Source: a virus (taxonomy: Duplodnaviria > Heunggongvirae > Uroviricota > Caudoviricetes). Taken from it: DNA of 22,048 nt. Location of the stretch: the IMG/VR virus record IMGVR_UViG_3300030444_000103, positions 1 to 22,048 of that record; one strand, written 5' to 3'. This document shows, one piece after another, positions 1-13,254 of the stretch (its first letter is position 1; every line of letters begins with the position of its first letter). The position numbers and the translations under genes are program-made. The notes under the pieces are model-generated. The model saw only the letters and a list, made by a program, of their open reading frames with translations, did no database searches and was not told where the DNA came from.

Positions 1-24
1 GATACCGCCAAACGTCACCAGAAA
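1..24 (-). ncRNA. dicF: DicF sRNA, 5' portion only (continues off the left edge)
   Basis: Reverse complement of nt 1-24 is TTTCTGGTGACGTTTGGCGGTATC, which matches the recalled 5' end of E. coli DicF; it lies downstream (minus strand) of the ydfC-like gene as in the dicB operon. Recalled from memory, not searched. Confidence 0.5.
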
Positions 25-364
25 ATTGATAACAGAGGGCGTTGCAGCGGGGTTGTCACTTAAGCGTATGGTCAACCTGACAACCCGGTGTCCTCAACGG
101 GGAAGGAATAACCCCGCCATACTTACCGCCGCGCCATTTCGCGGGTTGCCACAACCGGAAGCGCACGGTCGACGAAAATTTAACGACAGGCTATCTATGA
201 ACCAGCTACCTCGCCGTGCGCTTTCGCGTTATGGTCTGACTTTTCAGGGAAATATCCTTTCAGTAAACTGTCAGTGCCGGATGCTCACCCGTGTCCGGCG
301 CACGCACTCCACCTCACCCGTGGAGAACTCCTTAATTACCAACCTTAGCTTCGTTGGTTAGCTA

Positions 365-583
365 TTAACGCGGGTATGTAATCATTCTGGCAATGCTTAA
401 TGCCGCTGCTTTTTCCAGATTGGTGATATCCTGCTCCAGAGAGAACAGATTTTCAGCCTGCTTAGCCCTGGCTTCATTAGCCCATTTCAGATCCTGCGCT
501 GCATTAATTTTCTGGTGCATCCACTCATAAAGTTCATCATCGGTATAGTCTGGCGCGATGATAACGGGTTCTCGTTTCTGCAT
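365..583 (-). CDS. ydfC: YdfC-like small prophage protein (72 aa)
   Basis: 72-aa ORF on the same strand and upstream of dicF; size and operon position match the K-12 dicA-ydfA-ydfB-ydfC-dicF arrangement. Confidence 0.5.
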   Translation of the reverse strand: MQKREPVIIAPDYTDDELYEWMHQKINAAQDLKWANEARAKQAENLFSLEQDITNLEKAAALSIARMITYPR

Positions 584-612
584 ACTGATTCCTTGCGGTG
601 CTGTTTCGCTTA

Positions 613-741
613 TCAGCCGTTAGATTTTGCCGAACTGGAAAGCGCCTGTTTAAATTCGCTGAAGCTGAGAGCTTCTTCGCCTTCGGCAAGGCCTTCGAAG
701 TATTCTTCGTAAGCCTTTTCCATGATTGTGTCGAAATCCAT
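613..741 (-). CDS. ydfB: YdfB-like small protein (42 aa)
   Basis: Hand translation of the minus strand gives MDFDTIMEKAYEEYFEGLAEGEEALSFSEFKQALSSSAKSNG then stop; below the 60-aa ORF-track cutoff; size and position match ydfB. Confidence 0.45.
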   Translation of the reverse strand: MDFDTIMEKAYEEYFEGLAEGEEALSFSEFKQALSSSAKSNG

Positions 742-742
742 A

Positions 743-898
743 TCACCCACCTGAATTTCTTTCCAGCCAGCGACGCGCTCCAGATTCGGTTTTAAACGTT
801 TTGCTTTTGGTATACGTCATTGCGGTGAACGTGCCGTCCTGGTTTGGAAACACGCCGTACACCAGAGATTCGTTGTTGCCAAGATCGATAGTATCCAT
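743..898 (-). CDS. ydfA: YdfA-like small protein (51 aa)
   Basis: Part of track ORF 743..952; internal ATG at 898 is preceded by GAGG and yields 51 aa (MDTIDLGNNESLVYG...), matching the size and position of ydfA. Confidence 0.45.
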   Translation of the reverse strand: MDTIDLGNNESLVYGVFPNQDGTFTAMTYTKSKTFKTESGARRWLERNSGG

Positions 899-1011
899 GC
901 TGACCTCATTTCCCCTTAACGCCGGGGTAGCGGAACTGTTTGCTGAGAACACCGTGCGGTGTCTTGATGGAAAATAATTTAGAATAACCTAACATGAGAG
1001 GCGAGTGTTTT

Positions 1012-1029
1012 TGTTAGATTGATCTAACA
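1012..1029. promoter_or_regulatory. Operator-like palindrome TGTTAGA-N4-TCTAACA downstream of the repressor gene
   Basis: Near-perfect inverted repeat TTGTTAGATTGATCTAACAA read directly; same half-sites as the site at 1523-1540. Confidence 0.5.
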
Positions 1030-1065
1030 AAAAGGGTGGGCGCAACTAATCACTTGAAAAGAATG

Positions 1066-1473
1066 TTATTTTATTGATTTATTTTTACGCGCTTTAAGCA
1101 TTTCTTCGAAGAGTTTGTTGAAGTTTTCTACTCTTGCGCGCATTTCAGACAGCAAGGCTTCCTGCTCGGAAGATGGAAGAGCATCGAATAATTCGATCAA
1201 TTCTTTGTGGTTGGGAGTTAGCTCTGTTTCCACATGAAGTTCTTGTGCAGGCACTGGTGCCTTGTCTTCGTCACCAAACATTAGCCATGTAGGTGAGCAC
1301 TTCAGAGCATCCGCTAAAGCAAACAATCGTTTTCCGACTGGCTGGGTTTCGTCTCTTTCCCATTGTGAAATTGTGACGTGAGCAACTCCAGCGAGGCGCG
1401 CGGCTTCTCGTTGTGTTAAGCGTAATTCTTTTCGTCGCGCCAGAACTCGCTGGCCCAGGGTTCTTGTATCCAT
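1066..1473 (-). CDS. dicA: XRE-family HTH prophage repressor, DicA-like (135 aa)
   Basis: N-terminal HTH (LRLTQREAARLAGVAHVTISQWE); 135 aa; divergent from a 76-aa Cro-like gene and co-directional with ydfA/B/C-dicF, as for DicA. Confidence 0.7.
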   Translation of the reverse strand: MDTRTLGQRVLARRKELRLTQREAARLAGVAHVTISQWERDETQPVGKRLFALADALKCSPTWLMFGDEDKAPVPAQELHVETELTPNHKELIELFDALPSSEQEALLSEMRARVENFNKLFEEMLKARKNKSIK

Positions 1474-1540
1474 AGTTAGGTAATTCTAATTTTTCTTGAC
1501 TTAGGTATCCCGCGCACAATAATGTTAGAAAAGTCTAACA
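1474..1540. promoter_or_regulatory. Divergent repressor/cro control region with two operator sites
   Basis: Perfect TGTTAGA-aaag-TCTAACA at 1523-1540 and a degenerate copy AGTTAGG-taat-TCTAATT at 1474-1491; TTGACT at 1496-1501 followed 17 nt later by ATAATG gives a candidate rightward promoter overlapping the operator. Confidence 0.5.
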
Positions 1541-1553
1541 AGAGGGGGATTTG

Positions 1554-1781
1554 ATGCTTAAAGTTGACGCAATTACTTTTTTTGGCAGCAAAACAAAGCT
1601 TGCCAATGCCGCAGGAGTGAGGCTGGCAAGTGTTGCTGCTTGGGGGATACTGGTTCCTGAAGGTCGCGCGATGCGTCTACAGGAGGCATCTGGCGGGGAG
1701 CTTCAGTATGATCCCAAAGTTTATGATGAATATCGTAAGACGAAGCGGGCGGGGCGGTTGAACAATGAAAATCACTCCTGA
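1554..1781 (+). CDS. dicC: Cro-like small HTH regulator, DicC / YdaS family
   Basis: Track ORF 1551..1781; ATG at 1554 after GAGGGGGA; divergent from the repressor; start could instead be TTG at 1551. Confidence 0.6.
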   Translation: MLKVDAITFFGSKTKLANAAGVRLASVAAWGILVPEGRAMRLQEASGGELQYDPKVYDEYRKTKRAGRLNNENHS

Positions 1782-2286
1782 ACAGGCTCGTGAGGCTCTG
1801 GATGCCTGGATATGTCGACCAGGAATGACACAGGAGCAGGCGACGATATTAATCACTGAAGCATTCTGGGCTTTGAAAGAGCGCCCGAACATCGATGTTC
1901 AGCGTGTCACAGATGAAGGTGGCGCGGTTGATCAGCGAGCGCTTGGTGTTAATCGAGTGAAGATATTCGAACGCTGGAAGGCTATCGACACCAGGGATAA
2001 GCGTGAAAAGTTCACGGCGCTAGTGCCTGCGATTATGGAGGCTATCCGGATTAGTGATTTCAGGTTGTATCGTGAAATTACTGACGGAAAAAGCATCACG
2101 TGCATGATCGCCGGGTTAAACAAAGAATATGGCGATGTGGTGGAGTCCGGACTGCTTTTTGCTGATCCTGCCGTAGTGGATCGTGAAACTGACGAACTTA
2201 TAGAAAAAGCAATTGCTTTCAAGCTTGCGTATCGACAGCAATACCAACAAAAAGCTGGATGGAATTATGAGCCTTCTTTTTGCTGA
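1765..2286 (+). CDS. YdaT-like prophage protein in the cII position
   Basis: 173-aa ORF overlapping the end of the cro-like gene; family assignment is from weak recalled resemblance only. Confidence 0.5.
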   Translation: MKITPEQAREALDAWICRPGMTQEQATILITEAFWALKERPNIDVQRVTDEGGAVDQRALGVNRVKIFERWKAIDTRDKREKFTALVPAIMEAIRISDFRLYREITDGKSITCMIAGLNKEYGDVVESGLLFADPAVVDRETDELIEKAIAFKLAYRQQYQQKAGWNYEPSFC

Positions 2287-3232
2287 ACGCCCACTGGTTA
2301 TAAACACGCAGCTGGCAATGAAAATTGGCTTAAACGAAGCCATTGTTTTGCAACAACTGCACTACTGGTTGAGAGATACCAACTCCGGCATGGAATGTGA
2401 TGGTGTTCGCTGGATTTATAACACAACGGAACAATGGCTGGAACAGTTCCCATTCTGGTCAGAGTCAACGTTAAAGCGCGCGTTTGCAAGTCTGAAAACG
2501 CTGGGGCTTTTGCGTTGTGAAAAGCTCAATAAATCAAAGCGCGATATGACCAATTTCTACATGATCAACTATGGGAGCGAGCTTTTAGATGGTGGCAAAT
2601 TGAGCGAATCCATCGGTTCAAAATGCGCCGCTCCATCAGGTCAAAATGACACGATGGAAGAGGTCAAAATGAAACGCTCCATTGATTCAAAACGACCCAA
2701 TGTCATCGGGTCAAAATGGCCTGATGATCTTACAGAGAATACAACAGAGATTACTACAGAGAATAAAAACACTTTTCGTCCGGAAGCTTCGCAACCGGAC
2801 CCGCAGACGACTGAACAGGATTTTTTAACCCGGAACTCCGACGCGGTTGTGTTTAGTGCGAAAAAACGCCAGTGGGGTAGCAGGGAGGATTTGGCGTGTG
2901 CGCAGTGGATCTGGGGGCGGATCGTGGGTCTCTACGAACAGGCAGCCAGTGATGATGGCGAGATCATGCGACCAAAAGAGCCTAACTGGACTGCCTGGGC
3001 CAATGACGTGCGCACAATGCGGATGCTGGATGGCAGAAGCCACAGACAAATTTGCGAAATGTTTGGTCGGGTTCAGCGAGATCCATTCTGGGTAAAAAAC
3101 ATCATGAGCCCGTCAAAGCTCCGCGAAAAATGGGACGAACTGGTCATCCGCCTGGGACGTTCACCTGTACAGCGTTGTGTTAATCATATTTCTGAACCGG
3201 ATACAGAAATTCCGCCTGGTTTCAGAGGATAA
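2267..3232 (+). CDS. Phage replication initiator (O-like replisome organiser)
   Basis: Track ORF 2213..3232 with likely ATG at 2267 after GGATGG; N-terminus MSLLFAERPLVINTQLAMKIGLNEAIVLQQLHYWL is typical of replisome-organiser N-domains; iteron-like repeats lie inside the gene. Confidence 0.65.
   Translation: MSLLFAERPLVINTQLAMKIGLNEAIVLQQLHYWLRDTNSGMECDGVRWIYNTTEQWLEQFPFWSESTLKRAFASLKTLGLLRCEKLNKSKRDMTNFYMINYGSELLDGGKLSESIGSKCAAPSGQNDTMEEVKMKRSIDSKRPNVIGSKWPDDLTENTTEITTENKNTFRPEASQPDPQTTEQDFLTRNSDAVVFSAKKRQWGSREDLACAQWIWGRIVGLYEQAASDDGEIMRPKEPNWTAWANDVRTMRMLDGRSHRQICEMFGRVQRDPFWVKNIMSPSKLREKWDELVIRLGRSPVQRCVNHISEPDTEIPPGFRG
2610..2720 (+). repeat. Iteron-like direct repeats (putative ori) inside the replication gene
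   Basis: Five copies of CCATCrGkTCAAAATG-like motifs at about 2610, 2633, 2660, 2681 and 2703, spaced about 22-24 bp. Confidence 0.5.
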
Positions 3233-3272
3233 GTGTTGATTTCAGGTCATGAGGTAATTTTAAGGGGGACTT

Positions 3273-3695
3273 GTGGCAAAAGTTTTTACACAAGAAGAGC
3301 GGGAAAAAATTAAATGGCAGGTGGTGGAACTCGTGCGCCAGAGCGGCCGTGAGACGTTACGGCAACTGGAAGCTAAAACAGGTGCGACTAGATATCTGAT
3401 GAGCGTTCTTGCCAGAGAGCTGGTAGCCAGTGGCGATGTATACAACTCCGGCTACGGGTTATTCCCCTCTGAACAGGCGCGTAAGGACTGGCAAAACGCC
3501 CGCAAAAAACTCTCGAGGGCAAAGGTGAAGAAACCTGCTGTGGTTGATCCGGACCTTATCTGGTCATCACCTGACGGAGAAATACGTCGCTACGACAGTC
3601 GCCTAAACATAATCTGTCGCGAGTGCCGGAAGAGCGAAGTTATGCAGCGCATACTGGCTTTCTATCAGGGTAATTTTCAGGACGTGGCGCAGTGA
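3273..3695 (+). CDS. Hypothetical prophage protein (140 aa), GTG start
   Basis: ORF with AAGGGGGA upstream of a GTG start; its stop overlaps the start of the next gene; no family recognised. Confidence 0.5.
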   Translation: MAKVFTQEEREKIKWQVVELVRQSGRETLRQLEAKTGATRYLMSVLARELVASGDVYNSGYGLFPSEQARKDWQNARKKLSRAKVKKPAVVDPDLIWSSPDGEIRRYDSRLNIICRECRKSEVMQRILAFYQGNFQDVAQ

Positions 3696-4137
3696 GTGCA
3701 CCGGCAACCATTCTTGATATGTGCTGTGGCAGCCGCATGTTCTGGTTCGATAAGTCTGACGAACGGGCGATATTTAGCGATATCAGAAAAGAAGGATACA
3801 CATTACGCAATGGGAGACGCTTGATTATCAGCCCTGACATTATCGCAGATTTTCGTGCATTATCATTTGCAGACGCATCTTTTTCGATGGTTGTATTAGA
3901 CCCTCCGCATCTTGAGCGTGTTGGTGATAACGCCTGGATGGGAAAGAAATATGGACGGCTGAATAAAGATGCCTGGCGTGATGATTTGCGACAGAGATTT
4001 AAAGAAGCTTTTCGGGTGTTGAGGCCGCACGGCGTTCTGATTTTTTAATGGAATGAAACGCAAATACCGGTAAGCCAGATTCTGGCACTGACAGATAGAA
4101 AGCCTGTTATCTGTCAACGAACAGGGAAAAAACGATA
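3692..4137 (+). pseudogene. DNA methyltransferase (DPPY/DPPH-motif type), frameshifted at a T6 run
   Basis: 118-aa ORF containing VVLDPPH ends at TAA within TTTTTT (4041-4046); the next frame continues open (WNETQIPVSQILALTDRKPVICQRTGKKR) to about 4137; no SAM-binding motif follows, so the gene is truncated. Confidence 0.5.
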
Positions 4138-4310
4138 AAACCCACTGGATTATTTTTATGAAAGAGGCATCCAGTGAGTAGATTCGTAAGGTTACAGATA
4201 CGTATATCTGAATAATTAAATTCAGTTCTGTAAATAAAACTTAATCCTTAACCGGATGGATTTCTGCACCCTCAGAACATCAGGAGGCCGCCCGAAAGGG
4301 CGGTAGTGAA

Positions 4311-4493
4311 ATGCGAAAGTTCAAAATTATTATTGAAACGGGAATAGCTGGTGGAGATTTTGAGGATGTATTCGAAGTGGACGATGACGCAACACCTGAT
4401 GAAATTCATGACGGAGCATAAGAAATTTTCTTTAACTACTGCAATTACTCATACCACGAAATAAAAGACGATGAGGAAGAACAAAGTGGCTGA
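4311..4493 (+). pseudogene. Short ORF with an in-frame TAA at 4419-4421
   Basis: Hand translation: MRKFKIIIETGIAGGDFEDVFEVDDDATPDEIHDGA, stop, then EIFFNYCNYSYHEIKDDEEEQSG. Confidence 0.3.
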
Positions 4494-4662
4494 TTTTTGT
4501 TCAGCTAAATATAACATCAGTTTTGAAGAGCGGGATGAACTATTAATGGACTATGGTGAGTTACGCGGTGGAAGTGCTGCTGATGTCGAATCCTAGCGTG
4601 ATGACTATGAAGCGGGAAAAACTCCGGTCGAAGCATATTGTGATGAGTGGGGCGATGAATGA
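4471..4662 (+). pseudogene. Short ORF with an in-frame TAG at 4594-4596
   Basis: Hand translation: MRKNKVADFCSAKYNISFEERDELLMDYGELRGGSAADVES, stop, then RDDYEAGKTPVEAYCDEWGDE; its TGA overlaps the next ATG (ATGA). Confidence 0.3.
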
Positions 4663-4946
4663 GCGAGATTAATTATCAGGAAGGGCATGAAACGGCGGGG
4701 CAAGCAAAACCAGTGACATGGCGATATCGCTACGTGAAAAAAGGCGTTACGGACTTTCAGGGGAAGTAGTGGTCTGGTGACTGGAAATATGTACCGAAAA
4801 AAGAGGATTGTAACGACAGGCCGAACTATCAAATTCAGGCCTTATTCACTGCCTCACCAGTCCCGGTTACATCAGAAGAATTGGTTAAAGCTGTGCACTT
4901 TTATGAACAACTAAAACGCGAAAATCCACCAACATCCGGCAACTAG
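4659..4946 (+). pseudogene. Short ORF with an in-frame TAG at 4767-4769
   Basis: Hand translation: MSEINYQEGHETAGQAKPVTWRYRYVKKGVTDFQGK, stop, then a 58-codon open stretch WSGDWKYVPKKEDCNDRPNYQIQALFTASPVPVTSEELVKAVHFYEQLKRENPPTSGN. Confidence 0.3.
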
Positions 4947-5200
4947 ATTAATGGGTTAACTATGTCGGTTAAACGACCAGCCAACTGAAAAAGCGGAAAC
5001 CTGATTACAGGTTGCCAGATAAGGCAATGAGCTACCTGGCGCGGAACGGACTGATAAGTATGGGGAATGTTTTACGATGAACCTTTAGACTAAAGAGTTT
5101 GTAACGCTATGTAAGTGATTTTTTCTGGTTTAGATATTTATATGTCCGGCCAAATTGAGGTGTGTTTAAATGTAATTGCACATTGATTGTAGGAGGAATA

Positions 5201-5380
5201 ATGAAAAACGCATTGCAGTTTTTGTTTGTTGCGTTCTGGTTGTTCGCATCATGTATGCCCATCATCTTCACAGCAAGGTATATGGAAAAAGTTGATGTTT
5301 TGATATTAATATTTGGATATATAAATGCCCTTTTTTTAGGGGTGTTCATGGCGGTCATGTGCATTGAATACTGGCGGTAA
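5201..5380 (+). CDS. Small hydrophobic (two-helix) membrane protein, 59 aa
   Basis: Strong SD AGGAGG 5 nt before ATG 5201 (inside track ORF 5162..5380); MKNALQFLFVAFWLFASCMPIIFTARYMEKVDVLILIFGYINALFLGVFMAVMCIEYWR; sits in an AT-rich island. Confidence 0.45.
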   Translation: MKNALQFLFVAFWLFASCMPIIFTARYMEKVDVLILIFGYINALFLGVFMAVMCIEYWR

Positions 5381-5559
5381 ATACAGCGAATTCCATTGGT
5401 TTAGTTGGATATTTACTGTGCTGGACAAAAACGGTTTGCGGGGAAATCTTAGTTAAGTAGAATGACTGCGGGTGCTTGAGGCTATCTGCCTCGGGCACGA
5501 ACACCAACGGCAGGTAGAGAAAAGCCCCAGTTAACATTACGCGTCCTGCAAGACGCTTA

Positions 5560-5640
5560 ACATTAATCTGAGGCCAATTTCATGCCAGACACATGTAGGT
5601 TAGCCTCTTACGTGCCGAAAGGCAAGGAGAAGCAGGCTAT
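5560..5640 (+). pseudogene. hok/gef-family 5' region remnant, cut at the start codon
   Basis: GCCTCTTACGTGCCGAAAGGCAAGGAGAAGCAGGCTAT matches the recalled hokC-type leader and SD and resembles the intact hokD start at 8941-8958; the coding sequence is absent after the start-codon position. Confidence 0.4.
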
Positions 5641-7127
5641 TGTTAACACCAAGCTGTAATGTCCCCTTTGAACCATTCTAAAATGTCCCCAGACAATTCT
5701 CTGGGGGATTTTTCATGACCAAAGAAACTGTTACGATGAGTCATAAGGAACTCCACCGACTTCAGATTATTCAGGAGTCAATTAATCGACATATTACTCA
5801 GGAACAAGCTGCGGCACGCATTGGCATTTCTATTCGGCAGGTTAAACGTCTGGTGCAACGGTATAGAAATGAAGGGCCTTCTGGTCTGGTTTCCCACCGA
5901 CGTGGAAAGCGTCCTAATAATTCCTTTTCTACTGAATTCAGAGCAACAGTAATTTTACTCCTCAAAGGCCGTTACGCTGATTTTGGACCTACGTTTGCGT
6001 GCGAAAAATTGCGCGAGATACACGGTTTATCTTTATCCGTTGAAACTCTCAGAAAGTGGATGATAGAAGAGGGGGGTATGGCGTGAACGCCGTCGTAAAA
6101 TTGCCCGTATATATCAACGCCGCATGCGACGACCATCTTACGGTGAACTGATCCAGATTGATGGCTCACCTCATGACTGGTTTGAAAATCGAGGCCCCAG
6201 ATGTACACTGATCGTTTTCATTGATGATGCCACCAGTGCGTTGATGGCGTTGCGTTTTGTGCCTGCTGAAACAACCCGGGCTTACATGGAAACCCTCCGG
6301 GGTTACCTTAATGATCATGGCGTACCGCTCGCTCTCTACTCTGATAGACACAGTATATTCAGGGTAAATAACCCAGAGCGGGAAGGTGAGCTGACCCAGT
6401 TCACTCGTGCGATAAAGACACTGGGCATCGAGCCAATCCATGCCAACAGCCCGCAGGCAAAAGGGCGGGTAGAGCGCGCCAATCAGACACTACAGGACAG
6501 GCTGGTCAAAGAAATGCGGCTTCAGAATATCAGTGATATTGAAACAGCAAATGCATGGTTGCCGACCTTTATTGAAGCCTATAACAACCGGTTCGCTACG
6601 TCGCCTCGTACTACTGATAATGCTCATCTTGATGTGCACCATTCTGAAGAGGAACTGGGTTATATCTTCAGCCTACAGGCGAAGCGCGTTCTGTCTAAAA
6701 ATCTCACTTTCCAGTACAAAAGCAGTGCGTTTCAGGTACGCAGTGAGGGCCGGGGATATCGACTTAGGCATTCGGTTGTTACTGTATGCGAGAACTTTGA
6801 CGGTGAAATTAACGTTCTGTATGACGGGAAAGCGCTGGGCTGGGAAAAGTATGTTGATGGCCCGGAGCCTATACCACTGGATGATGAAAAGAGTGTCCAT
6901 GAACGAGTGGATAATGCCCGTATTGATTTACGCTCAAAATACTATGTTAAACCTAAAGCTGACCATCCCTGGCTTACGCGCCGAACGCAAAGTCATCAGC
7001 AAGTTAAGCCCCCGAAGTTACCTAAAAAGAAGCCTGATCCCGATAAAAAAGATTGAAACCAAGATCGATTCGGTTGAGTGCATATCCATTCATAGGGTAG
7101 ATTCTTAAGTCGCGTTTCTGGTGTTCA
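5641..7127 (+). mobile_element. Insertion sequence with a DDE (rve) transposase, IS481/ISNCY-like; boundaries approximate
   Basis: Begins where hok homology ends; candidate imperfect terminal inverted repeats TGTTAACACCA (left) and TGAACACCA (right, reverse complement); no clear target-site duplication. Confidence 0.4.
5715..7056 (+). pseudogene. DDE transposase split into two ORFs by a frameshift in a G6 run (6071-6076)
   Basis: ORF 5715..6086 carries the N-terminal HTH; ORF 6124..7056 carries the integrase core; the alternative frame across the G run reads ...EEGVWRERRRKIARIYQRRMRRPSYGELIQ..., joining them. Confidence 0.7.
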
Positions 7128-7492
7128 TTTTCGGGTGGTTTGTTACTTGTTTTACCGGGGATATGCCAGAAACGCGCTGAGTCAGTCTGGGCGGTGCGCG
7201 TAATGAGGCGTTATGGTAAATAGCCTATGCTAATGTCCGCTAAGAGCAAGAAGCGGAAGTTGGCAGTTTTGTGGACTGTCCCCACAAAAGTGACTACAGA
7301 AATAGTTGCAATTCATAATTGATCATGGGTTGTCAGTTAAACTCGTGGCGATTTAAATAGACTAATTGGGAGTGCGTCCATTACTTATATCTTGTAATGT
7401 TAACTATCAGAAATGATACAAAGATAATATGTCTTTAAAGAAAAGGCTGATGGCGAAAAGTGGCCCGATGAGGGCCACAATACGGCTGTCAC

Positions 7493-7825
7493 TTAGACGT
7501 AAATATCAATGGTGCCAGCGGTATTTGTATCGTCTTTTTTCTCTTCTTTTTTATCAGGCTGAACTGTCGCGTCTTTATTCTTTTTCTCTGCCTGCTGCCT
7601 TAACAACTGCTCCAGTTGAGCCCTGAGGCTTTCAATTTGCTTCTGTACCAATGCAGCCATTTCTTTTTTCTGCTGTGTCGTCATCCCCTCTTCCGATGAG
7701 ATTTTCCCAAGCTTTTCAGTCAGCACCTGAATTTGTCTTGTGATTTTGGCTATTTCTGATGTTCCTTCCGGGGCGGAGTTGTTTGAAATAACGGTTGAGG
7801 TATTTCCCTGAATTGTGACAGACAT
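7493..7825 (-). CDS. flxA: FlxA-like protein (110 aa)
   Basis: 110-aa coiled-coil-like ORF matching the recalled size and context of Qin flxA; preceded by a sigma-28 promoter match. Confidence 0.65.
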   Translation of the reverse strand: MSVTIQGNTSTVISNNSAPEGTSEIAKITRQIQVLTEKLGKISSEEGMTTQQKKEMAALVQKQIESLRAQLEQLLRQQAEKKNKDATVQPDKKEEKKDDTNTAGTIDIYV

Positions 7826-7848
7826 AGATTTCTCCTTTTAAAAAAGCA

Positions 7849-7875
7849 CTATCGGCATGCACAAAAAAATCTTTA
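7849..7875 (-). promoter_or_regulatory. Sigma-28 (FliA) promoter for flxA
   Basis: Minus strand reads TAAAGATT-N11-GCCGATAG against consensus TAAAGTTT-N11-GCCGATAA, about 25 nt upstream of the start codon. Confidence 0.6.
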
Positions 7876-8320
7876 ATCGTATTTCTTGTGTCATTAATTG
7901 TTTGATGTTCAGATTGTTTTCCTCGCGGGCTGGCGCGCCTCAGAAAGTAAAGCTTGTTGACAGGGGTAAACGTTCGGCAATAATTTTCTGCCGCATGCGG
8001 GTGTTGCATAAAACGTGCTACGTTCCTTTATCGACAGGTCAGGTCACCGCTCACCCGCCGACGAGAAAGCAACACTGACATGCTAAAGCAAAAAATAGAT
8101 GAATAAGTTGAGTTGTGCATATGTAGCCTGACCGTCACAAAGTATATGGTGTCTGTACCAGTAAGATGATGGCCGGACTCTTTAAAAACGAGCTGACCTG
8201 CACAATACAGGATGGACTTAGCAATGGCTGCTCCTGGCACAAAGCGGACAGTGATCACCGTTCTTACGACTACTTTCTGACTTCCTTCGTGACTTGCCCT
8301 AAGCATGTTGTAGTGCGATA

Positions 8321-8346
8321 CTTGTAATGACATTTGTAATTACAAG
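8321..8346 (+). promoter_or_regulatory. relBE operator-like palindrome (relO)
   Basis: CTTGTAATGACATTTGTAATTACAAG just upstream of relB; matches the known pattern of TTGTAAT/ATTACAA repeats. Confidence 0.5.
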
Positions 8347-8357
8347 AGGTGTAAGAC

Positions 8358-8597
8358 ATGGGTAGCATTAACCTGCGTATTGACGATGAACTTAAAGCGC
8401 GTTCTTACGCCGCGCTTGAAAAAATGGGTGTAACTCCTTCTGAAGCGCTTCGTCTCATGCTCGAGTATATCGCTGACAATGAACGCTTGCCGTTCAAACA
8501 GACACTCCTGAGTGATGAAGATGCTGAACTTGTGGAGATAGTGAAAGAACGGCTTCGTAATCCTAAGCCAGTACGTGTGACGCTGGATGAACTCTGA
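8358..8597 (+). CDS. relB: RelB antitoxin
   Basis: 79 aa, MGSINLRIDDELKARSYAALEKMGVTPSEALRLMLEYIADNERLPF...; stop overlaps the relE ATG (TGATG). Confidence 0.85.
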   Translation: MGSINLRIDDELKARSYAALEKMGVTPSEALRLMLEYIADNERLPFKQTLLSDEDAELVEIVKERLRNPKPVRVTLDEL

Positions 8598-8884
8598 TGG
8601 CGTATTTTCTGGATTTTGACGAGCGGGCACTAAAGGAATGGCGAAAGCTGGGCTCGACGGTACGTGAACAGTTGAAAAAGAAGCTGGTTGAAGTACTTGA
8701 GTCACCCCGGATTGAAGCAAACAAGCTCCGTGGTATGCCTGATTGTTACAAGATTAAGCTCCGGTCTTCAGGCTATCGCCTTGTATACCAGGTTATAGAC
8801 GAGAAAGTTGTCGTTTTCGTGATTTCTGTTGGGAAAAGAGAACGCTCGGAAGTATATAGCGAGGCGGTCAAACGCATTCTCTGA
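8597..8884 (+). CDS. relE: RelE mRNA-interferase toxin
   Basis: 95 aa, MAYFLDFDERALKEWRKLGSTVREQLKKKLVEVLESPRIEANKLRGMPDCYKIKLRSSGYRLVYQVIDEKVVVFVISVGKRERSEVY... Confidence 0.85.
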   Translation: MAYFLDFDERALKEWRKLGSTVREQLKKKLVEVLESPRIEANKLRGMPDCYKIKLRSSGYRLVYQVIDEKVVVFVISVGKRERSEVYSEAVKRIL

Positions 8885-8955
8885 ACCAAAGCATGACATC
8901 TCTGTTTCGCACCGAAGGTGACACTTCTGCTTTGCGTTGACAGGAGAAGCAGGCT

Positions 8956-9111
8956 ATGAAGCAGCAAAAGGCGATGTTAATCGCCCTGATCGTCATCTGT
9001 TTAACCGTCATAGTGACGGCACTGGTAACGAGGAAAGACCTCTGCGAGGTACGAATCCGAACCGGCCAGACGGAGGTCGCTGTCTTCACAGCTTACGAAC
9101 CTGAGGAGTAA
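8956..9111 (+). CDS. hokD: HokD (RelF) type I toxin, 51 aa
   Basis: Hand translation: MKQQKAMLIALIVICLTVIVTALVTRKDLCEVRIRTGQTEVAVFTAYEPEE; below the ORF-track cutoff. Confidence 0.85.
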   Translation: MKQQKAMLIALIVICLTVIVTALVTRKDLCEVRIRTGQTEVAVFTAYEPEE

Positions 9112-9178
9112 GAGACCCGGCGGGGGAGAAATCCCTCGCCACCTCTGATGTGGCAGGCATCCTCAACGCACCCGCACT

Positions 9179-9207
9179 TAACCCGCTTCGGCGGGTTTTT
9201 GTTTTTA
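9179..9207 (+). terminator. Rho-independent terminator after hokD
   Basis: ACCCGCTTCGGCGGGT hairpin followed by a T-run. Confidence 0.6.
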
Positions 9208-9327
9208 TTTTCAACGCGTTTGAAGTTCTGGACGGTGCCGGAATAGAATCAAAAATACTTAAGTAGCGCGCAGGGATAAGAGGGATGGTCCCTTAAAGGG
9301 GAGAGCTAATTATCCGGAAGGATTCTG

Positions 9328-9579
9328 ATGATGAACATCGAAGAACTGCGTAAAATTTTTTGTGAAGATGGCCTCTATGCTGTGTGCGTTGAAAATGGAA
9401 ATCTTGTTAGTCATTACCGCATTATGTGTTTGCGAAAGAATGGGGCTGCGTTAATTAATTTTGTGGATGCTCGGGTCACGGACGGATTTATCTTGCGCGA
9501 AGGTGAGTTTGTCACTTCATTACAGGCATTGAAAGAGATCGGAATAAAAGCTGGCTTTTCTGCTTTTTCAGGAGAATAA
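9328..9579 (+). CDS. Rem-like small prophage protein (83 aa)
   Basis: ORF with GGAAGGA SD; size and position after hokD match Qin rem; the rem sequence itself is not recalled. Confidence 0.5.
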   Translation: MMNIEELRKIFCEDGLYAVCVENGNLVSHYRIMCLRKNGAALINFVDARVTDGFILREGEFVTSLQALKEIGIKAGFSAFSGE

Positions 9580-9645
9580 ACTCATCTACAATCTTGCGCG
9601 GGGCTGAACTCCCGCTGAGTAACACCGTGCCACCGGAGAAAACCG

Positions 9646-9924
9646 ATGGCACGCAACGCAAAATATTACAATTCTGATAATTCGCCCGTTCTTGCCTGCA
9701 CGCACGGGCGGTATTCTCACGCATTCAAGTCTGAATGGTTCCAGCACCCTCCATGCACTGCAGAACAGGCCGAATGGCTGATTCATTCTTACCGCAGGCG
9801 CGGGTTCGAGGTTAAGAAAGCTCTCAGTCTCGACTATCGGCACTGGATAATCTCTGTCAGGCTGCCTTATTCCGAACGCCCACCACGTGCGTCCCGCACT
9901 TTCCAGCAACGGATCTGGAGGTAA
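9646..9924 (+). CDS. Hypothetical protein (92 aa), translationally coupled to the next gene
   Basis: GGAGAAAACCG before the ATG; TAA at 9922-9924 is followed 1 nt later by the GTG start of the downstream gene. Confidence 0.4.
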   Translation: MARNAKYYNSDNSPVLACTHGRYSHAFKSEWFQHPPCTAEQAEWLIHSYRRRGFEVKKALSLDYRHWIISVRLPYSERPPRASRTFQQRIWR

Positions 9925-9925
9925 C

Positions 9926-10975
9926 GTGCGGGTATTACTTAGACCTGTTCTGGTGCCTGAGCTTGGGCTGGTGGTCCTTAAGCCGGGCCGTGAATCCATA
10001 CAGATATTTCATAATCCTCGAGTGCTGGTGGAACCGGAACCAAAAAGCATGCGTAATCTGCCATCCGGAGTCGTTCCTGCCGTTCGCCAGCCGCTGGCGG
10101 AAGACAAAACATTGCTGCCGTTTTTTAGTAACGAACGGGTGATTCGTGCTGCTGGCGGCGTTGGCGCATTGTCCGACTGGCTATTACGTCATGTTACATC
10201 CTGCCAGTGGCCTAATGGCGATTACCATCACACTGAAACAGTCATTCACCGTTATGGTACCGGCGCAATGGTGTTGTGCTGGCACTGCGACAACCAACTG
10301 CGTGACCAGACATCGGAATCACTGGAGCTGCTTGCTCAACAAAATCTGACAGCATGGGTGATTGACGTCATCCGTCACGCAATAAGCGGTACGCAGGAGC
10401 GGGAATTATCTTTGGCTGAATTATCCTGGTGGGCGGTCTGCAATCAGGTGGTGGATGCACTACCTGAGGCTGTATCGCGTCGTTCGCTGGGATTACCAGC
10501 GGAAAAAATCTGCTCGGTGTACCGCGAAAGCGACATCGTACCGGGAGAGCAGACCGCCACCAGCATATTGAAACAACGCACAAAAAATCTTGCACCGTTG
10601 CCTTACGCCCACCAGCAACAAAAATCACCACAGGAAAAGACGGTGGTAAGCATCACCGTTGATCCAGAGTCTCCGGAATCTTTCATGAAGCTGCCTAAAC
10701 GTCGCCGCTGGGTTAAGGAGAAATACACACGTTGGGTTAAGACACAGCCGTGTGCTTGCTGCGGTATGCCAGCCGACGATCCGCATCATCTGATTGGTCA
10801 CGGGCAGGGCGGAATGGGAACAAAAGCACATGATCTCTTTGTGTTGCCTTTGTGCAGAAAGCATCACAACGAGCTGCATACGGATACAGTGGCATTTGAA
10901 GATAAGTATGGCTCCCAACTGGAGCTGATATTTCGTTTTATCGATCGCGCGCTGGCAATTGGCGTACTGGCGTAA
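9926..10975 (+). CDS. YdfU-like DUF968 protein with a C-terminal Cys/His (HNH-like) motif, 349 aa
   Basis: Track ORF 9887..10975; GTG at 9926 after GGAGGT; C-terminus ...QPCACCGMPADDPHHLIGHGQGGMGTKAHDLFVLPLCRKHHNELH... Confidence 0.6.
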   Translation: MRVLLRPVLVPELGLVVLKPGRESIQIFHNPRVLVEPEPKSMRNLPSGVVPAVRQPLAEDKTLLPFFSNERVIRAAGGVGALSDWLLRHVTSCQWPNGDYHHTETVIHRYGTGAMVLCWHCDNQLRDQTSESLELLAQQNLTAWVIDVIRHAISGTQERELSLAELSWWAVCNQVVDALPEAVSRRSLGLPAEKICSVYRESDIVPGEQTATSILKQRTKNLAPLPYAHQQQKSPQEKTVVSITVDPESPESFMKLPKRRRWVKEKYTRWVKTQPCACCGMPADDPHHLIGHGQGGMGTKAHDLFVLPLCRKHHNELHTDTVAFEDKYGSQLELIFRFIDRALAIGVLA

Positions 10976-10988
10976 GTGGAGAACGAGC

Positions 10989-11741
10989 ATGAACCTTGAA
11001 GCCTTACCAAAATATTACTCCCCAAAATCTCCAAAATTGAGCGATGACGCTCCAGCGACAGGCACCGGTTGTTTAACAATTACGGATGTAATGGCAGCGC
11101 AGGGGATGGTGCAGTCGAAAGCACCACTTGGGTTGGCCTTATTTCTGGCAAAAGTTGGTGTTCAGGACCCTCAGTTTGCGATTGAAGGCCTGCTAAATTA
11201 CGCGATGGCACTGGATAACCCGACATTGAACAAATTGAGTGAAGAAATCCGGTTACAGATTATTCCTTACCTCGTGAGTTTTGCCTTTGCTGATTACTCC
11301 AGGTCTGCGGCAAGTAAGGCTCGCTGTGAGCATTGTTCAGGTACGGGATTTTATAATGTATTGCGCGAAGTGGTGAAACACTACAGACGCGGGGAATCTG
11401 TAATCAAGGAAGAATGGGTGAAGGAACTATGTCAGCATTGCCATGGTAAGGGCGAAGCCAGCACAGCGTGCAGAGGGTGTAAGGGTAAAGGGATTGTTCT
11501 GGATGAAAAAAGAACCCGGTTTCATGGCGTACCGGTATATAAGATTTGTGGGCGTTGTAATGGAAACCGGTTTAGTCGTTTACCGACCACGCTGGCACGA
11601 CGTCATGTCCAGAAGCTGGTACCAGACCTGACCGATTATCAGTGGTATAAGGGGTATGCGGACGTCATTGGTAAACTGGTAACAAAGTGCTGGCAGGAAG
11701 AAGCATACGCGGAAGCGCAATTGAGGAAGGTGACGAGATAA
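10989..11741 (+). CDS. Late-gene antiterminator Q (phage 82 / QuuQ-like), 250 aa
   Basis: Track ORF 10959..11741 with ATG 10989 after GGAG; several CxxC pairs; size and sequence match the recalled Qin QuuQ. Confidence 0.8.
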   Translation: MNLEALPKYYSPKSPKLSDDAPATGTGCLTITDVMAAQGMVQSKAPLGLALFLAKVGVQDPQFAIEGLLNYAMALDNPTLNKLSEEIRLQIIPYLVSFAFADYSRSAASKARCEHCSGTGFYNVLREVVKHYRRGESVIKEEWVKELCQHCHGKGEASTACRGCKGKGIVLDEKRTRFHGVPVYKICGRCNGNRFSRLPTTLARRHVQKLVPDLTDYQWYKGYADVIGKLVTKCWQEEAYAEAQLRKVTR

Positions 11742-11772
11742 ATGATTTTTGCTGAAGATGGCGACATGATGT

Positions 11773-11801
11773 TTGCATTTTTCAAAAAATATGGATAAAA
11801 T
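11773..11801 (+). promoter_or_regulatory. pR'-like late promoter
   Basis: TTGCAT-N17-TAAAAT immediately downstream of Q. Confidence 0.55.
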
Positions 11802-11846
11802 TTTTTCAACGATGGGCTTTGTATACCCGACGTTAAGAAAAAGTAG

Positions 11847-11872
11847 AAAACCCGCTGATGAGCGGGTTTTGT
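11847..11872 (+). terminator. tR'-like intrinsic terminator
   Basis: AAAACCCGCT-GATG-AGCGGGTTTT hairpin about 45 nt downstream of the promoter -10. Confidence 0.6.
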
Positions 11873-12162
11873 GCTTTAAATGGGGCAATGGTAATGTTGA
11901 ATCTCATCCCGGGACTCATGTCTGTTAACTTATTATTTAGCTGGTGACTTGGTTATTTGCCTGATGTTTAAAATGTTTTCTTCCAGTACAATGTCCCTAA
12001 ACACAATGAGTCTGCTTATTATATTATTAGCAGAGCTATTACGGCCAAAGTACAGCATAAGCTTTTAAAGCCAATCAACCAGTCATCAAGACAGACGGGG
12101 TTATTCATAAAAACTCTCCATGTGTGATCCGATGGGGCCTGAAATTAAAGCTTTAATATAGC

Positions 12163-12375
12163 TCATGAAAGGTAAACATTGGCAGCTGAAGGGCCACGCA
12201 GACCATTTATCCGGCAAAATTCCACGCGTAATCCGGTGGTAATTTCTTCTGCATCGCGGAGATTGAGCGCTGAGACATGAAGCTGGACATCGATACGACC
12301 ATCGGATGGGGTGATAAGACCCTTGCCGCTTTTGCCGTCAAAGGTTTTGACAATTCCTGTCATTTTACGGGACAA
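12163..12375 (-). CDS. cspF: Cold-shock-domain protein, CspF/CspH-like
   Basis: 70 aa, [26 protein letters not shown]...[16 protein letters not shown]. Confidence 0.8.
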
Positions 12376-13173: not shown

Positions 13174-13197
13174 AACCCGCTCAGGCGGGTTTTTTAT
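13174..13197 (+). terminator. Intrinsic terminator
   Basis: AACCCGCTCAGGCGGGTT hairpin followed by TTTTTT. Confidence 0.55.
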
Positions 13198-13254
13198 TAT
13201 CTGCTTTAAATATATTATTAAAATATAAAAAATACTTGTTACTAATAAAATCAA

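What the first reader, a model, noticed from the sequence alone, without database searches (positions are those of the whole stretch)
2610..2720. Iteron array inside the replication initiator gene
Five direct repeats of a roughly 16-bp motif (CCATCrGkTCAAAATG) lie at about 23-bp spacing within the coding sequence of the O-like replication protein, as for lambda ori inside gene O. This suggests the origin is intact, so the prophage could still fire replication on induction even though it cannot make virions.
Basis: seen in the sequence. Interest (0 to 1): 0.45.

Follow-up and report, generated by a model that had tools for sequence, protein, structure and literature searches.

The report
Phage replication origin inside initiator gene
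A row of five to six protein-binding repeats and an easily melted A-rich stretch lies in the middle of a prophage's replication-initiator gene: the classic phage-lambda origin layout, in a very common but unstudied variant.

Summary
Five good repeats, plus a sixth degenerate one upstream, lie 23-24 bp apart at 2593-2721. They sit inside an intact 321-aa O-like initiator gene (2267-3232). This is the strongest short-range periodicity in the 22-kb window.

The repeats are not a peptide artefact. The same 10-mer, GGTCAAAATG, is read in three frames. Third codon positions are about 2.4-fold more conserved here than in the N-terminal domain.

The unit is a roughly 13-bp dyad, GGTCA-AAA-TGACC. Homologues from Enterobacterales to Staphylococcus carry such arrays at the same place in the gene. 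The variable half-site bases track one residue at the start of the predicted recognition helix: Ser with GGTCA, Lys/Arg with GGACA, Asp with GGGCA/GTGCA.

Directly downstream, 2727-2776 is the least stable duplex in the gene and holds three 12-bp CAGAGAnTAC repeats. The C-terminal half is homologous to lambda O. The N-domain is a different winged helix whose closest fold match is RepA_N.

The array matches plaque-forming relatives except for one base. Firing was not tested, and no P-like loader gene follows.

The parts
2267..3232 (+). O-like replication initiator gene (321 aa, ATG 2267, stop 3230-3232) that contains the origin
   Evidence: ORF list. PHROG phrog_391 'replication initiation O-like', 2.1e-91 over aa 17-321. 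99.8% nt identity to the 'DNA replication protein O' gene of phage PhiR42_1 and 96.5% to that of mEp460_ev081.
2267..2581 (+). Coding sequence of the N-terminal winged-helix domain (aa 1-105), the predicted iteron reader. The recognition helix is aa 66-78 and the specificity residue is Ser67 (nt 2465-2467).
2593..2605 (.). Iteron 0, degenerate (TGGCAAATTGAGC)
   Evidence: One 23-nt period upstream of iteron 1. A perfect dyad GGTCAAAGTGACC occupies the homologous position in L003, L013 and L018. The lag-23 periodicity begins at about 2578.
2616..2628 (.). Iteron 1 (GTTCAAAATGCGC)
2639..2651 (.). Iteron 2 (GGTCAAAATGACA), the best dyad and the most conserved copy
   Evidence: perfect 4-nt arms GTCA/TGAC. 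Across 10 homologues, 20 of the 23 columns around it are invariant.
2662..2674 (.). Iteron 3 (GGTCAAAATGAAA)
2685..2697 (.). Iteron 4 (ATTCAAAACGACC). It carries the only difference from PhiR42_1 (G>A at 2685).
   Evidence: The A allele is present in 3 of 27 distinct close-relative sequences.
2709..2721 (.). Iteron 5 (GGTCAAAATGGCC)
2727..2776 (.). A-rich, low-stability element, the predicted unwinding region. It holds three 12-bp repeats of CAGAGAnTAC, at 2733-2744, 2745-2756 and 2757-2768.
   Evidence: Least stable 30-, 40- and 50-nt windows of the gene. GC 0.30-0.375. Repeats D2/D3. Third-codon-position diversity 0.033. 0 of 50 sites polymorphic among close relatives. The same element sits 11-12 nt apart downstream of the array in 55 of 78 related loci, against 8 of 1405 background windows. 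97.5% identical to a stretch in O genes of Stx phages that have other N-domains.
2705..3148 (+). Coding sequence of the linker plus the lambda-O-like C-terminal domain (aa 147-294)
   Evidence: BLASTP against lambda O aa 135-270: 34% identity, E 1e-26. The same C-domain (74% nt identity) is joined to a different N-domain and a different repeat array in Shigella phage SfIV gp41.
3167..3229 (+). C-terminal tail (aa 301-321, vqRcVNhiSEPDteIPPGFRG) matching the C-terminal tail of the host primosomal protein DnaT
   Evidence: 15 of 21 residues identical to DnaT 159-179 in PDB chains 2RU8, 6AEP and 9ZBT, E 0.014-0.046. NCBIfam DnaT positions 160-179, E 0.0057, far below the cut-off.
1496..1523 (+). 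pR-like promoter (TTGACT-16-AATAAT) between the repressor and cro-like genes. It is the likely source of rightward transcription into the O gene.
   Evidence: Consensus scan, 10 of 12 matches. This is a pattern match only.
1066..1473 (-). cI/DicA-like repressor gene (135 aa)
   Evidence: Pfam HTH_3 1.5e-14. Annotated 'cI' in PhiR42_1.
1551..2286 (+). cro/DicC-like gene (1551-1781) and YdaT/cII-like gene (1765-2286), upstream of O in the same operon
   Evidence: Pfam P22_Cro 5e-12 and YdaT_toxin 5.6e-5. phrog_163 'CII-like' 2.6e-40.
3273..3695 (+). DUF977 / 'Ren-like' gene (140 aa), in the position where lambda has P
   Evidence: Pfam DUF977 5e-29. phrog_142 'Ren-like exclusion protein' 1.6e-47. 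The same O-then-DUF977 order is found in PhiR42_1, mEp460_ev081 and HannyBb.

Best explanation
The array is the replication origin of a Qin-like lambdoid prophage, built on the ori-lambda plan.

Shown: five to six phased 13-bp dyads (GGTCA-AAA-TGACC, 23-24 bp apart) lie between the coding regions for the two domains of the O-like initiator. They are followed immediately by the least stable, A-rich stretch of the gene.

Inferred: dimers of the protein's own N-terminal winged-helix domain bind the dyads. Residue 67 at the start of the recognition helix reads the variable bases of each half-site. Occupation of the phased, A-tract-centred sites wraps and bends the DNA into an O-some-like complex. 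The resulting stress is released in the adjacent CAGAGAnTAC-repeat element, which melts.

More speculative: the lambda-O-like C-terminal domain and the DnaT-like tail then bring the host DnaB helicase to the opened strands. This would go through host DnaC or the restart primosome, because no phage P-type loader is encoded. Transcription from the pR-like promoter after loss of the DicA-like repressor would supply the initiator and might also activate the origin.
For: 1. Real and non-random. It is the strongest periodicity in the 22 kb: 58 of 92 matches at lag 23, against a shuffle maximum of 50.

2. DNA-level constraint, not protein-level. The same 10-mer is read in 3 frames. In a colinear alignment of 10 enterobacterial homologues, third-codon-position diversity is 0.443 in the N-domain (cp1 0.137, cp2 0.061). 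In the array it is 0.185, about equal to cp1 at 0.181. In the A-rich element it is 0.033.

3. Conserved with the N-domain across great distances. GGTCAAAATG(ACC) at 22-24-nt phasing, at the same place in the gene, occurs in Trabulsiella, Edwardsiella, Xenorhabdus, Morganella, Serratia and Klebsiella phage Kp4882-3. It also occurs in Staphylococcus caprae and Fructilactobacillus. Other branches carry GGACA..TGTCC, GGGCA..TGCCC, GTGCA..TGCAC or GATCA..TGATC, and both half-sites change together.

4. Protein-DNA covariation. Across 60 loci, residue 67 carries 0.74 of the half-site class entropy and is the top column. Ser goes with GGTCA in 21 of 24 loci, Lys/Arg with GGACA in 8 of 8, Asp with G[GT]GCA in 17 of 17, and Asn with CCCA in 3 of 3. 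The switch recurs independently. Staphylococcus L052 (Ser, GGTCA) and L079 (Lys, GGACA) have 77% identical N-domains. The window and L052 are only 51% identical yet share the site.

5. Modular inheritance. Kp4882-3 shares the N-domain and iterons but has a different C-domain (Phg_2220_C) and a different downstream gene. SfIV gp41 shares the C-domain but has an HTH_36 N-domain and a different array, GTCAAAATCTGAC at a 15-nt period, at the same gene position.

7. Lambda anatomy. The lambda iterons lie at nt 349-433 of O, followed by the AT-rich tract (PMC7466680), and the C-domains are homologous.

8. The unwinding element sits at the expected place.

9. The same module occurs in deposited phage genomes, including HannyBb from an environmental sample.
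Against: - There is no experimental evidence for binding, unwinding or initiation at this sequence in any member of this family. I found no paper on it.
- The A-rich element is only moderately AT-rich (GC 0.30-0.375). About 3% of all windows in the 22 kb are at least as unstable.
- Only iteron 2 has a clean dyad in this window. The other copies keep one good half-site.
- No helicase-loader gene accompanies the initiator, so the step after unwinding is conjecture. I inspected only the early-right regions of the related phages, not their whole genomes.
- The covariation analysis uses related sequences and an automatic class call, so it rests on a handful of independent switches rather than 60 independent points.
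- Diversity values are dominated by one between-clade split.
Confidence: 0.85

Rival explanations
1. The array is an origin by descent but is dead in this prophage. It is inherited intact in sequence but cannot fire here, because of the G>A change in iteron 4, the lack of a dedicated helicase loader, or the surrounding decay (IS insertions, a truncated late region).
For: - There is one substitution relative to PhiR42_1, at the outer base of the left half-site of iteron 4. It also changes Gly to Asp. It is a minority allele, in 3 of 27 distinct sequences.
- The prophage is decayed. An IS element lies at about 5715-7056, a methyltransferase gene is truncated at 3692-4048, and IS1 at 17585 cuts off the late genes.
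- No P-like or DnaC-like gene is present.
Against: - The O ORF, repressor, cro-like gene, pR-like promoter, the other five repeats and the A-rich element are all intact.
- For lambda, the two iterons next to the AT-rich tract suffice in vitro (PMC7466680). Here those are iterons 4 and 5, and iteron 5 is unchanged.
- The loader-less arrangement is also that of the complete phage genomes, so it is not a defect of this copy.
Confidence: 0.2
2. The repeats are binding sites for the O-like protein or another phage protein, but they act as an autoregulatory, exclusion or copy-control element rather than as the site where replication starts.
For: - The covariation proves only a protein-DNA partnership, not initiation.
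- Iterons in plasmids also serve copy control (general knowledge).
- Cloned lambda ori iterons cause an inhibition phenotype against superinfecting phage (PMC3349717, abstract listed).
Against: - The array is always coupled to a conserved low-stability element with helically phased repeats, in 55 of 78 loci. A pure operator would not need this.
- The position and layout equal those of ori-lambda.
- The host protein belongs to an initiator family.
- A regulatory role would most likely be additional to, not instead of, the origin role.
Confidence: 0.06
3. The dyads work as hairpins in single-stranded DNA or mRNA, for example a primosome-assembly site or a translational or stability element, and not as duplex binding sites.
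For: - Both half-sites change together across homologues, which would also preserve a hairpin.
- The 196-nt region folds somewhat better than shuffles as ssDNA (z -2.2; 5 of 200 shuffles do as well).
Against: - In this window only one of six copies has even 4 perfectly paired arm bases.
- The predicted fold pairs different copies with each other, not each dyad with itself.
- All copies within one genome share the same half-site sequence, and that sequence tracks an amino acid in a recognition helix. This indicates sequence-specific reading, not mere pairing.
- No Rfam family matches the region.
Confidence: 0.03
4. The repeats are a codon-level by-product of a repeated peptide motif.
For: Three of the copies encode [GD]-S-K in the same frame, and the peptide across the array is fairly conserved among homologues.
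Against: - Spacing of 23 nt puts successive copies in different frames. GGTCAAAATG is read as G-Q-N, V-K-M and G-S-K.
- Third codon positions are as constrained as first positions.
- The same DNA motif is kept in Staphylococcus, where the surrounding peptide differs.
Confidence: 0.01

Closest known systems
ori-lambda inside gene O of phage lambda, and the 6-iteron origins of Stx phages 933W and P27
   Same: - The iteron array lies in the middle of the initiator gene, between the DNA-binding and partner-binding domains: lambda gene nt 349-433, here 327-455.
- It has 4-6 copies at 20-24 bp spacing, and each copy is an imperfect dyad around an A-tract. The central TCAAAAYG is even shared: lambda TCCCTCAAAACGAGGGA, here GGTCAAAATGACC.
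- An AT-rich tract lies immediately to the right.
- The C-terminal domains are homologous (34% identity, E 1e-26).
- Gene order is cI / cro / cII-like / O / ... / ren-like (PMC7466680).
   Different: - The N-terminal domain is not the Phage_rep_O domain: PF04492 hits lambda O at 5.7e-36 and does not hit this protein.
- The half-sites differ (GGTCA against TCCCTC).
- The unit is shorter, 13 bp against 18-19 bp.
- No P gene is present.
- The protein has an added DnaT-like tail.
- The A-rich element is organised as 12-bp CAGAGAnTAC repeats.
RepA_N plasmid initiators of Gram-positive bacteria (pSK41 and pTZ2162 RepA; also Vibrio PLE RepA)
   Same: [quoted passage not shown] That describes GGTCA-AAA-TGACC exactly.
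- It has a two-domain design with an exchangeable, host-specific C-terminal domain.
- From my own knowledge (Weaver et al. 2009), the origin of these plasmids also lies inside repA.
   Different: - The C-domain here is lambda-O-like.
- The element is a lambdoid prophage of a Gram-negative host.
O-like 'primosomal protein' gp41 of Shigella phage SfIV and relatives (vB_EcoM-720R4, SKA5 and others)
   Same: The same C-terminal domain at 73-75% nt identity, the same overall gene length, and a repeat array at the same place in the gene (L167 1344-1500, gene nt 289-445).
   Different: A different N-domain (HTH_36 / DnaD_N-like). A different repeat, GTCAAAATCTGAC at a 15-nt period. No CAGAGA element.
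Intragenic origins of Gram-positive phage replisome organisers (SPP1 G38P/oriL; lactococcal TP901-1 and Tuc2009 rep genes). Recalled from memory, not tested here.
   Same: The initiator binds direct repeats located within its own gene. Members of the present N-domain family occur in Staphylococcus, Bacillus, Listeria and Lactobacillus phages annotated 'DnaD-like' or 'replication initiation protein'.
   Different: I did not compare sequences or repeats with these systems. SPP1 encodes its own helicase and loader.

Membership tests
Lambda-type intragenic phage origin (ori-lambda kind) | Four or more phased direct repeats, each an imperfect dyad, inside the initiator gene between its two domains | tested here: met
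   Six copies at 2593-2721 with a 23-24 nt period, at gene nt 327-455. Lambda iterons lie at gene nt 349-433.
Lambda-type intragenic phage origin (ori-lambda kind) | AT-rich, easily unwound tract directly flanking the iterons on the C-terminal side | tested here: met
   2727-2776 is the least stable window of the gene, about 3 sd below the gene mean, with GC 0.30-0.375. The richness is moderate.
Lambda-type intragenic phage origin (ori-lambda kind) | The iterons are bound by the N-terminal domain of the protein that the gene encodes | tested here: inconclusive
The indirect evidence is strong: the iteron half-site covaries with residue 67 of the recognition helix, and iterons travel with the N-domain through domain swaps.
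Lambda-type intragenic phage origin (ori-lambda kind) | The fragment supports initiator-dependent replication | not testable with these tools
   Requires cloning and an in vivo or in vitro replication assay.
Lambda O protein family | C-terminal domain homologous to the lambda O C-terminal (P-binding) domain | tested here: met
   aa 147-294 against lambda O 135-270: 34% identity, E 1e-26. phrog_391, phrog_9773 and phrog_277 'O-like'.
Lambda O protein family | N-terminal Phage_rep_O domain (PF04492) | tested here: not met
   No Pfam hit for the whole protein at E <= 0.01, nor for aa 1-110 at E <= 10. Lambda O hits PF04492 at 5.7e-36 in the same call.
Lambda O protein family | Partner P-type (or DnaC-type) helicase loader encoded immediately downstream | tested here: not met
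   The next genes are DUF977/Ren-like and a methyltransferase. The same holds in PhiR42_1, mEp460_ev081 and HannyBb.
RepA_N initiators (PF06970) | Match to the RepA_N sequence profile | tested here: not met
   No hit at E <= 10.
RepA_N initiators (PF06970) | Winged-helix N-terminal domain with the RepA_N / DnaD-N-terminal-domain fold | tested here: met
   [not shown]
RepA_N initiators (PF06970) | [quoted passage not shown] | tested here: met
   GGTCA-AAA-TGACC and its variants. The definition is taken from PMC7145576.
Primosomal protein DnaT | Full-length match to the DnaT equivalog model (NF002770, cut-off 201 bits) | tested here: not met
   16.3 bits, covering only the last 20 residues. PDB DnaT chains match only aa 301-321. 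The GenBank label 'primosomal protein I' on relatives reflects this tail alone.

The most novel reading that the evidence does not exclude
The module is a self-contained, loader-less lambda-type replicon. Its initiator combines a RepA_N-like winged helix with a simple, re-programmable one-residue recognition code (Ser/Lys/Asp/Asn67 matched to the half-site bases). It combines this with a lambda-O-like domain and a mimic of the DnaT C-terminal tail that hijacks the host restart primosome or DnaB-DnaC directly, replacing P. Because at least 80% of the gene is present in about a third of complete E. coli genomes, many 'cryptic' Qin-like prophages would retain an origin able to amplify flanking chromosome on derepression.
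Probability: 0.2. Interest if true: 0.6.

Novelty: new member of a known kind. Interest (0 to 1): 0.35.

Why it matters
A phage origin inside an O-like gene is textbook biology, so the finding itself is ordinary. This version, however, is uncharacterised and very common. At least 80% of the gene is present in 1849 of 5426 complete E. coli genomes, where RefSeq mostly labels it 'hypothetical protein'.

Knowing where the origin lies helps in three ways:
- It helps interpret copy-number bumps at cryptic prophages in sequencing data.
- It helps judge whether defective prophages can still amplify neighbouring DNA after SOS induction.
- It allows these genes to be annotated correctly.

The family-wide comparison also gives testable predictions. 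A single residue in the recognition helix should set iteron specificity. A conserved CAGAGAnTAC repeat should be the unwinding or loading site. An initiator without a P partner carries a DnaT-like tail, which is a lead on how host helicase is recruited.

Tried and rejected
- Pfam on the whole O-like protein and on each half found nothing useful. The only hits were spurious (Slx4, YLR146W-A) and below cut-off. NCBIfam gave only the weak DnaT tail hit.
- The bare 10-mer with 2 mismatches is not enriched window-wide. Enrichment appears only for the longer motif and the phasing.
- Full-text searches for iterons with lambdoid prophages, for Qin prophage origins, for replisome-organiser repeats and for the literal motif GGTCAAAATGAC found no description of this origin. 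The motif hits were unrelated human papers. A search for the source of the PhiR phages (ECOR13) also gave nothing.
- I looked in a review and in the 2026 preprimosome structure paper for what the DnaT C-terminal tail binds. Neither states it.
- The second protein search, with the N-domain alone, returned only fragments shorter than 200 aa. These were usable as an alignment for structure prediction but not for context.
- Rfam has no family at the array. ssDNA folding is only mildly better than shuffles and pairs different copies with each other, so I rejected the hairpin reading.
- A generic count of 4-nt-arm dyads is only 1.7-fold enriched in array regions over background (13.1 against 7.9 per kb). 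The signal is in the specific xxxCA-W3-TGxxx class, not in palindromes in general.
- I considered a packaging or partition site and rejected it, because of the position inside an initiator gene and the linkage to the N-domain.
Full report
**Context.** The window is part of a Qin-like lambdoid prophage of Escherichia.

- Positions 1-17569 match Escherichia phage PhiR42_1 at 99.2%.
- The early-right operon reads: DicA/cI-like repressor (1066-1473, minus strand), DicC/cro-like (1551-1781), YdaT/cII-like (1765-2286), an O-like gene (2267-3232), a DUF977/'Ren-like' gene (3273-3695), and a truncated methyltransferase.
- The O-like protein matches phrog_391 'replication initiation O-like' over its full length (2e-91). 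It has no Pfam domain.

**The observation.** The repeats are there.

- The repeat finder gives five in-register copies with spacing 23, 23, 23 and 24 nt.
Shuffles give 0.87 hits, and none of 100 reaches 5.
- A lag-23 self-comparison scores 58 of 92 at 2578-2580. This is the highest value for any lag from 8 to 60 anywhere in the window, and well above the maximum of 200 shuffles (43.2 +/- 1.4, largest 50).
- A sixth, degenerate copy lies one period upstream at 2593-2605.
- The copies fall in three reading frames. GGTCAAAATG is translated as G-Q-N, V-K-M and G-S-K, which by itself excludes a repeated-peptide origin.

**Constraint at the DNA level.** Ten enterobacterial homologues are colinear through this part of the gene.

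- In the N-terminal domain, diversity per codon position is 0.137 / 0.061 / 0.443, the normal signature of protein-level selection.
- In the array it is 0.181 / 0.108 / 0.185, so third positions are as constrained as first positions.
- In the A-rich stretch that follows, third-position diversity is 0.033.
- Among 27 distinct near-identical sequences from viral contigs, the A-rich 50-mer has no polymorphism at all.
- Caveat: the ten sequences form essentially two clades, so these are relative comparisons within one data set.

**What the unit is.** I fetched 80 genomic loci encoding relatives of the N-terminal domain.

- Arrays with 22-24-nt phasing sit at the same place in the gene in Trabulsiella, Edwardsiella, Xenorhabdus, Morganella, Serratia, Citrobacter, Raoultella, Enterobacter and a Klebsiella phage.
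- With the very same core GGTCAAAATGACC, they also occur in Staphylococcus caprae and Fructilactobacillus.
- The unit is a 13-bp dyad, xxxCA-(A/T)3-TGxxx.
- Other branches carry GGACAATTTGTCC, GGGCAAATTGCCC, GTGCAAATTGCAC, GATCAAAATGATC, TATCAAAATGATA or CCCAAAATGGG. The outer bases of both half-sites change together.

**Who reads it.** An AlphaFold model of aa 1-112 (pLDDT 84) is a winged helix.

- RepA_N iterons are described as semi-palindromic direct repeats whose inverted repeats converge on a poly-A tract (PMC7145576). That is the architecture seen here.
- Across 60 loci with a callable half-site class, the alignment column most informative about the class is residue 67. It carries 0.74 of the class entropy and lies at the start of the predicted recognition helix, in the motif W-S-x-X-T-[LIV]-K-R.
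- The pairings are: Ser with GGTCA (21 of 24), Lys/Arg with GGACA (8 of 8), Asp with G[GT]GCA (17 of 17), and Asn with CCCA (3 of 3).
- This is not only shared ancestry. Two Staphylococcus proteins with 77% identical N-domains differ at residue 67 (Ser against Lys) and in their iterons (GGTCA against GGACA). The window protein and the Staphylococcus Ser protein are 51% identical and share the site.
- I take this as strong indirect evidence that the repeats are the binding sites of the protein encoded around them. It is not a binding assay.

**Modularity.**

- Klebsiella phage Kp4882-3 shares the N-domain, the iterons and the A-rich element (76% nt identity over gene nt 58-535). It has a different C-terminal domain (Phg_2220_C) and a different downstream gene.
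- Shigella phage SfIV gp41 shares the C-terminal domain (74% nt identity over nt 497-875). It has an HTH_36-type N-domain and a different array, GTCAAAATCTGAC at a 15-nt period, at the same place in its gene.
- An Stx1 phage O gene has yet another N-domain and G-rich repeats, but the same CAGAGAATAC element at 97.5% identity.
- The layout is therefore [N-domain + cognate iterons] | [A-rich element] | [C-domain], with exchange points at the A-rich element.

**The unwinding element.**

- 2727-2776, starting six bases after the last iteron, is the least stable 30-, 40- and 50-nt window of the gene. It scores -56.4 against -69.1 +/- 4.2 kcal/mol for 50-mers, and GC falls to 0.30.
- It consists of three 12-bp repeats, CAGAGAATACAA / CAGAGATTACTA / CAGAGAATAAAA (2733-2768).
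- Such repeats, 11-12 nt apart, follow the array in 55 of 78 related loci, against 8 of 1405 background windows.
- In several Gram-positive relatives the spacing is 11 nt, so the repeat is not locked to the reading frame.
- The AT-richness is moderate. About 3% of all windows in the 22 kb are as unstable.

**Comparison with lambda.**

- In lambda the four annotated iterons lie at nt 349-433 of gene O (spacing 20, 24, 23), followed by the AT-rich tract. Here the array spans nt 327-455.
- Lambda iterons (TCCCTCAAAACGAGGGA) and these (GGTCAAAATGACC) are both dyads around an A-tract, and they share the central TCAAAAYG.
- The C-terminal halves are homologous (34% identity, E 1e-26).
- The N-terminal domains are not detectably related by sequence. 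PF04492 hits lambda O at 5.7e-36 and does not hit this protein.
- In lambda and Stx phages the iterons bind O and the AT-rich tract is needed for unwinding (PMC7466680).
- By analogy, I propose that dimers of the N-domain fill the phased sites and bend the DNA. The adjacent CAGAGA element then melts, and the C-terminal part brings in the helicase.

**How the helicase arrives is open.**

- No P-like or DnaC-like gene follows the initiator, either here or in the early-right regions of PhiR42_1, mEp460_ev081 and HannyBb. I did not inspect the whole genomes of those phages.
- The last 21 residues (vqRcVNhiSEPDteIPPGFRG) match the C-terminal tail of the host primosomal protein DnaT in 15 of 21 positions. 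Related phage initiators end in similar xPxGFRG/S tails.
- The papers I could read do not say what this tail of DnaT contacts.
- A role in recruiting host DnaB-DnaC or the restart primosome is speculation, but it can be tested.

**Is this copy intact?**

- The ORF is full length.
- Over 2585-2785 the window is identical to PhiR42_1 except for G>A at 2685, at the outer base of the left half-site of iteron 4. The change also turns Gly into Asp. mEp460_ev081 and HannyBb differ at one to three further bases. The 2685 A is a minority allele, in 3 of 27 distinct sequences.
- A pR-like promoter (TTGACT-16-AATAAT, 1496-1523) and the repressor gene are present.
- The prophage as a whole is decayed. An IS element lies at about 5715-7056. 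IS1 at 17585-18088 ends the phage sequence just after the lysis genes, and it is followed by a P4-type integrase, tRNA-Arg(CCT) and host genes for an FNT-family transporter and MlaA.
- No structural genes lie in the window.
I put about 0.6 on this copy being functional.

**Rivals.**

- A peptide-repeat artefact is excluded by the frames.
- A hairpin function is unlikely. Only one of the six copies in the window has a clean dyad. The predicted ssDNA fold pairs different copies rather than each dyad (z -2.2). No Rfam family matches.
- A purely regulatory binding array cannot be excluded. It would not explain the constant coupling to a low-stability, helically phased element, and it would most likely be an added role.

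**Verdict.** This is a lambda-type intragenic origin with a new iteron/N-domain specificity: a new member of a known kind.

- At least 80% of the gene is present in 1849 of 5426 complete E. coli genomes, mostly labelled hypothetical. I found no paper describing its origin.
- Interest is modest for the finding as stated.
- The recognition code, the conserved CAGAGA element and the DnaT-like tail on a P-less initiator are the parts worth following up.

Noticed in passing
window 3167-3229 (aa 301-321 of the O-like protein): The C-terminal tail RcVNhiSEPDteIPPGFRG matches the last 21 residues of host primosomal protein DnaT in 15 of 21 positions. Related initiators with other C-domains end in similar xPxGFRG/S tails. 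No P-like or DnaC-like loader gene follows the initiator here, nor in the early-right regions of three related phage genomes.
   Followed up: partly
window 2465-2467 (Ser67); loci L003-L083: Across 60 relatives, one residue at the start of the predicted recognition helix tracks the variable bases of the iteron half-site. Ser goes with GGTCA, Lys/Arg with GGACA, Asp with GGGCA/GTGCA, and Asn with CCCA. The switch has occurred independently in Enterobacterales and in Staphylococcus.
   Followed up: yes
window 2733-2768; L168 1508-1552; 55 of 78 related loci: A CAGAGAnTAC repeat at 11-12 nt spacing is conserved at the DNA level from E. coli to Staphylococcus and Limosilactobacillus. It is shared between O-like genes that have unrelated N-domains and iterons. 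Its exact role (unwinding element, loading site or single-strand binding site) is unknown.
   Followed up: partly
L167 1344-1500 (Shigella phage SfIV gp41): This O-like gene has the same C-domain as the window protein but an HTH_36 N-domain. At the same place in the gene it carries a different array, about six copies of GTCAAAATCTGAC at a 15-nt period. It is probably another uncharacterised origin type.
   Followed up: partly
window 17585-22048: The phage sequence ends at an IS1 transposase gene (17585-18088, minus strand). It is followed by a P4-type integrase (18451-19644, minus strand), tRNA-Arg(CCT) (19770-19844, minus strand), an FNT-family transporter gene and mlaA. The late genes of the Qin-like prophage appear to have been deleted at an IS1 junction next to an integrase at a tRNA-Arg site.
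   Followed up: partly
window 5470-7056: A sok antitoxin RNA (Rfam RF01794, 5470-5641) lies directly next to an IS element with two ORFs (5715-6086 and 6124-7056, weak rve_3 hit). The same arrangement is present in PhiR42_1.
   Followed up: no
window 12515-12907 and 15418-15803: There are two cspA-type thermoregulator leaders (Rfam RF01766, 159 and 113 bits). They presumably lie upstream of the prophage cold-shock genes of the cspB/cspI kind.
   Followed up: no
window 3692-4048: The methyltransferase ORF after the DUF977 gene is short (118 aa, partial Methyltransf_11/25 hits). It appears truncated relative to what a full enzyme would need, and the same short form is annotated in PhiR42_1.
   Followed up: no
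loci L005, L007, L057, L060: E. coli-type copies of this gene (95-97% aa identity) sit in metagenome bins labelled Bacillota and Veillonella parvula. Two 41,200-bp contigs labelled Nocardioides and Micromonospora carry matching Staphylococcus-phage-like initiator regions (same TATCAAAATGATA dyads at the same positions). These look like binning or contamination errors in public assemblies.
   Followed up: no
E. coli complete genomes: At least 80% of the O-like gene is present in 1849 of 5426 complete E. coli genomes, with up to 4 matching places per genome. RefSeq mostly annotates it as 'hypothetical protein'.
   Followed up: no
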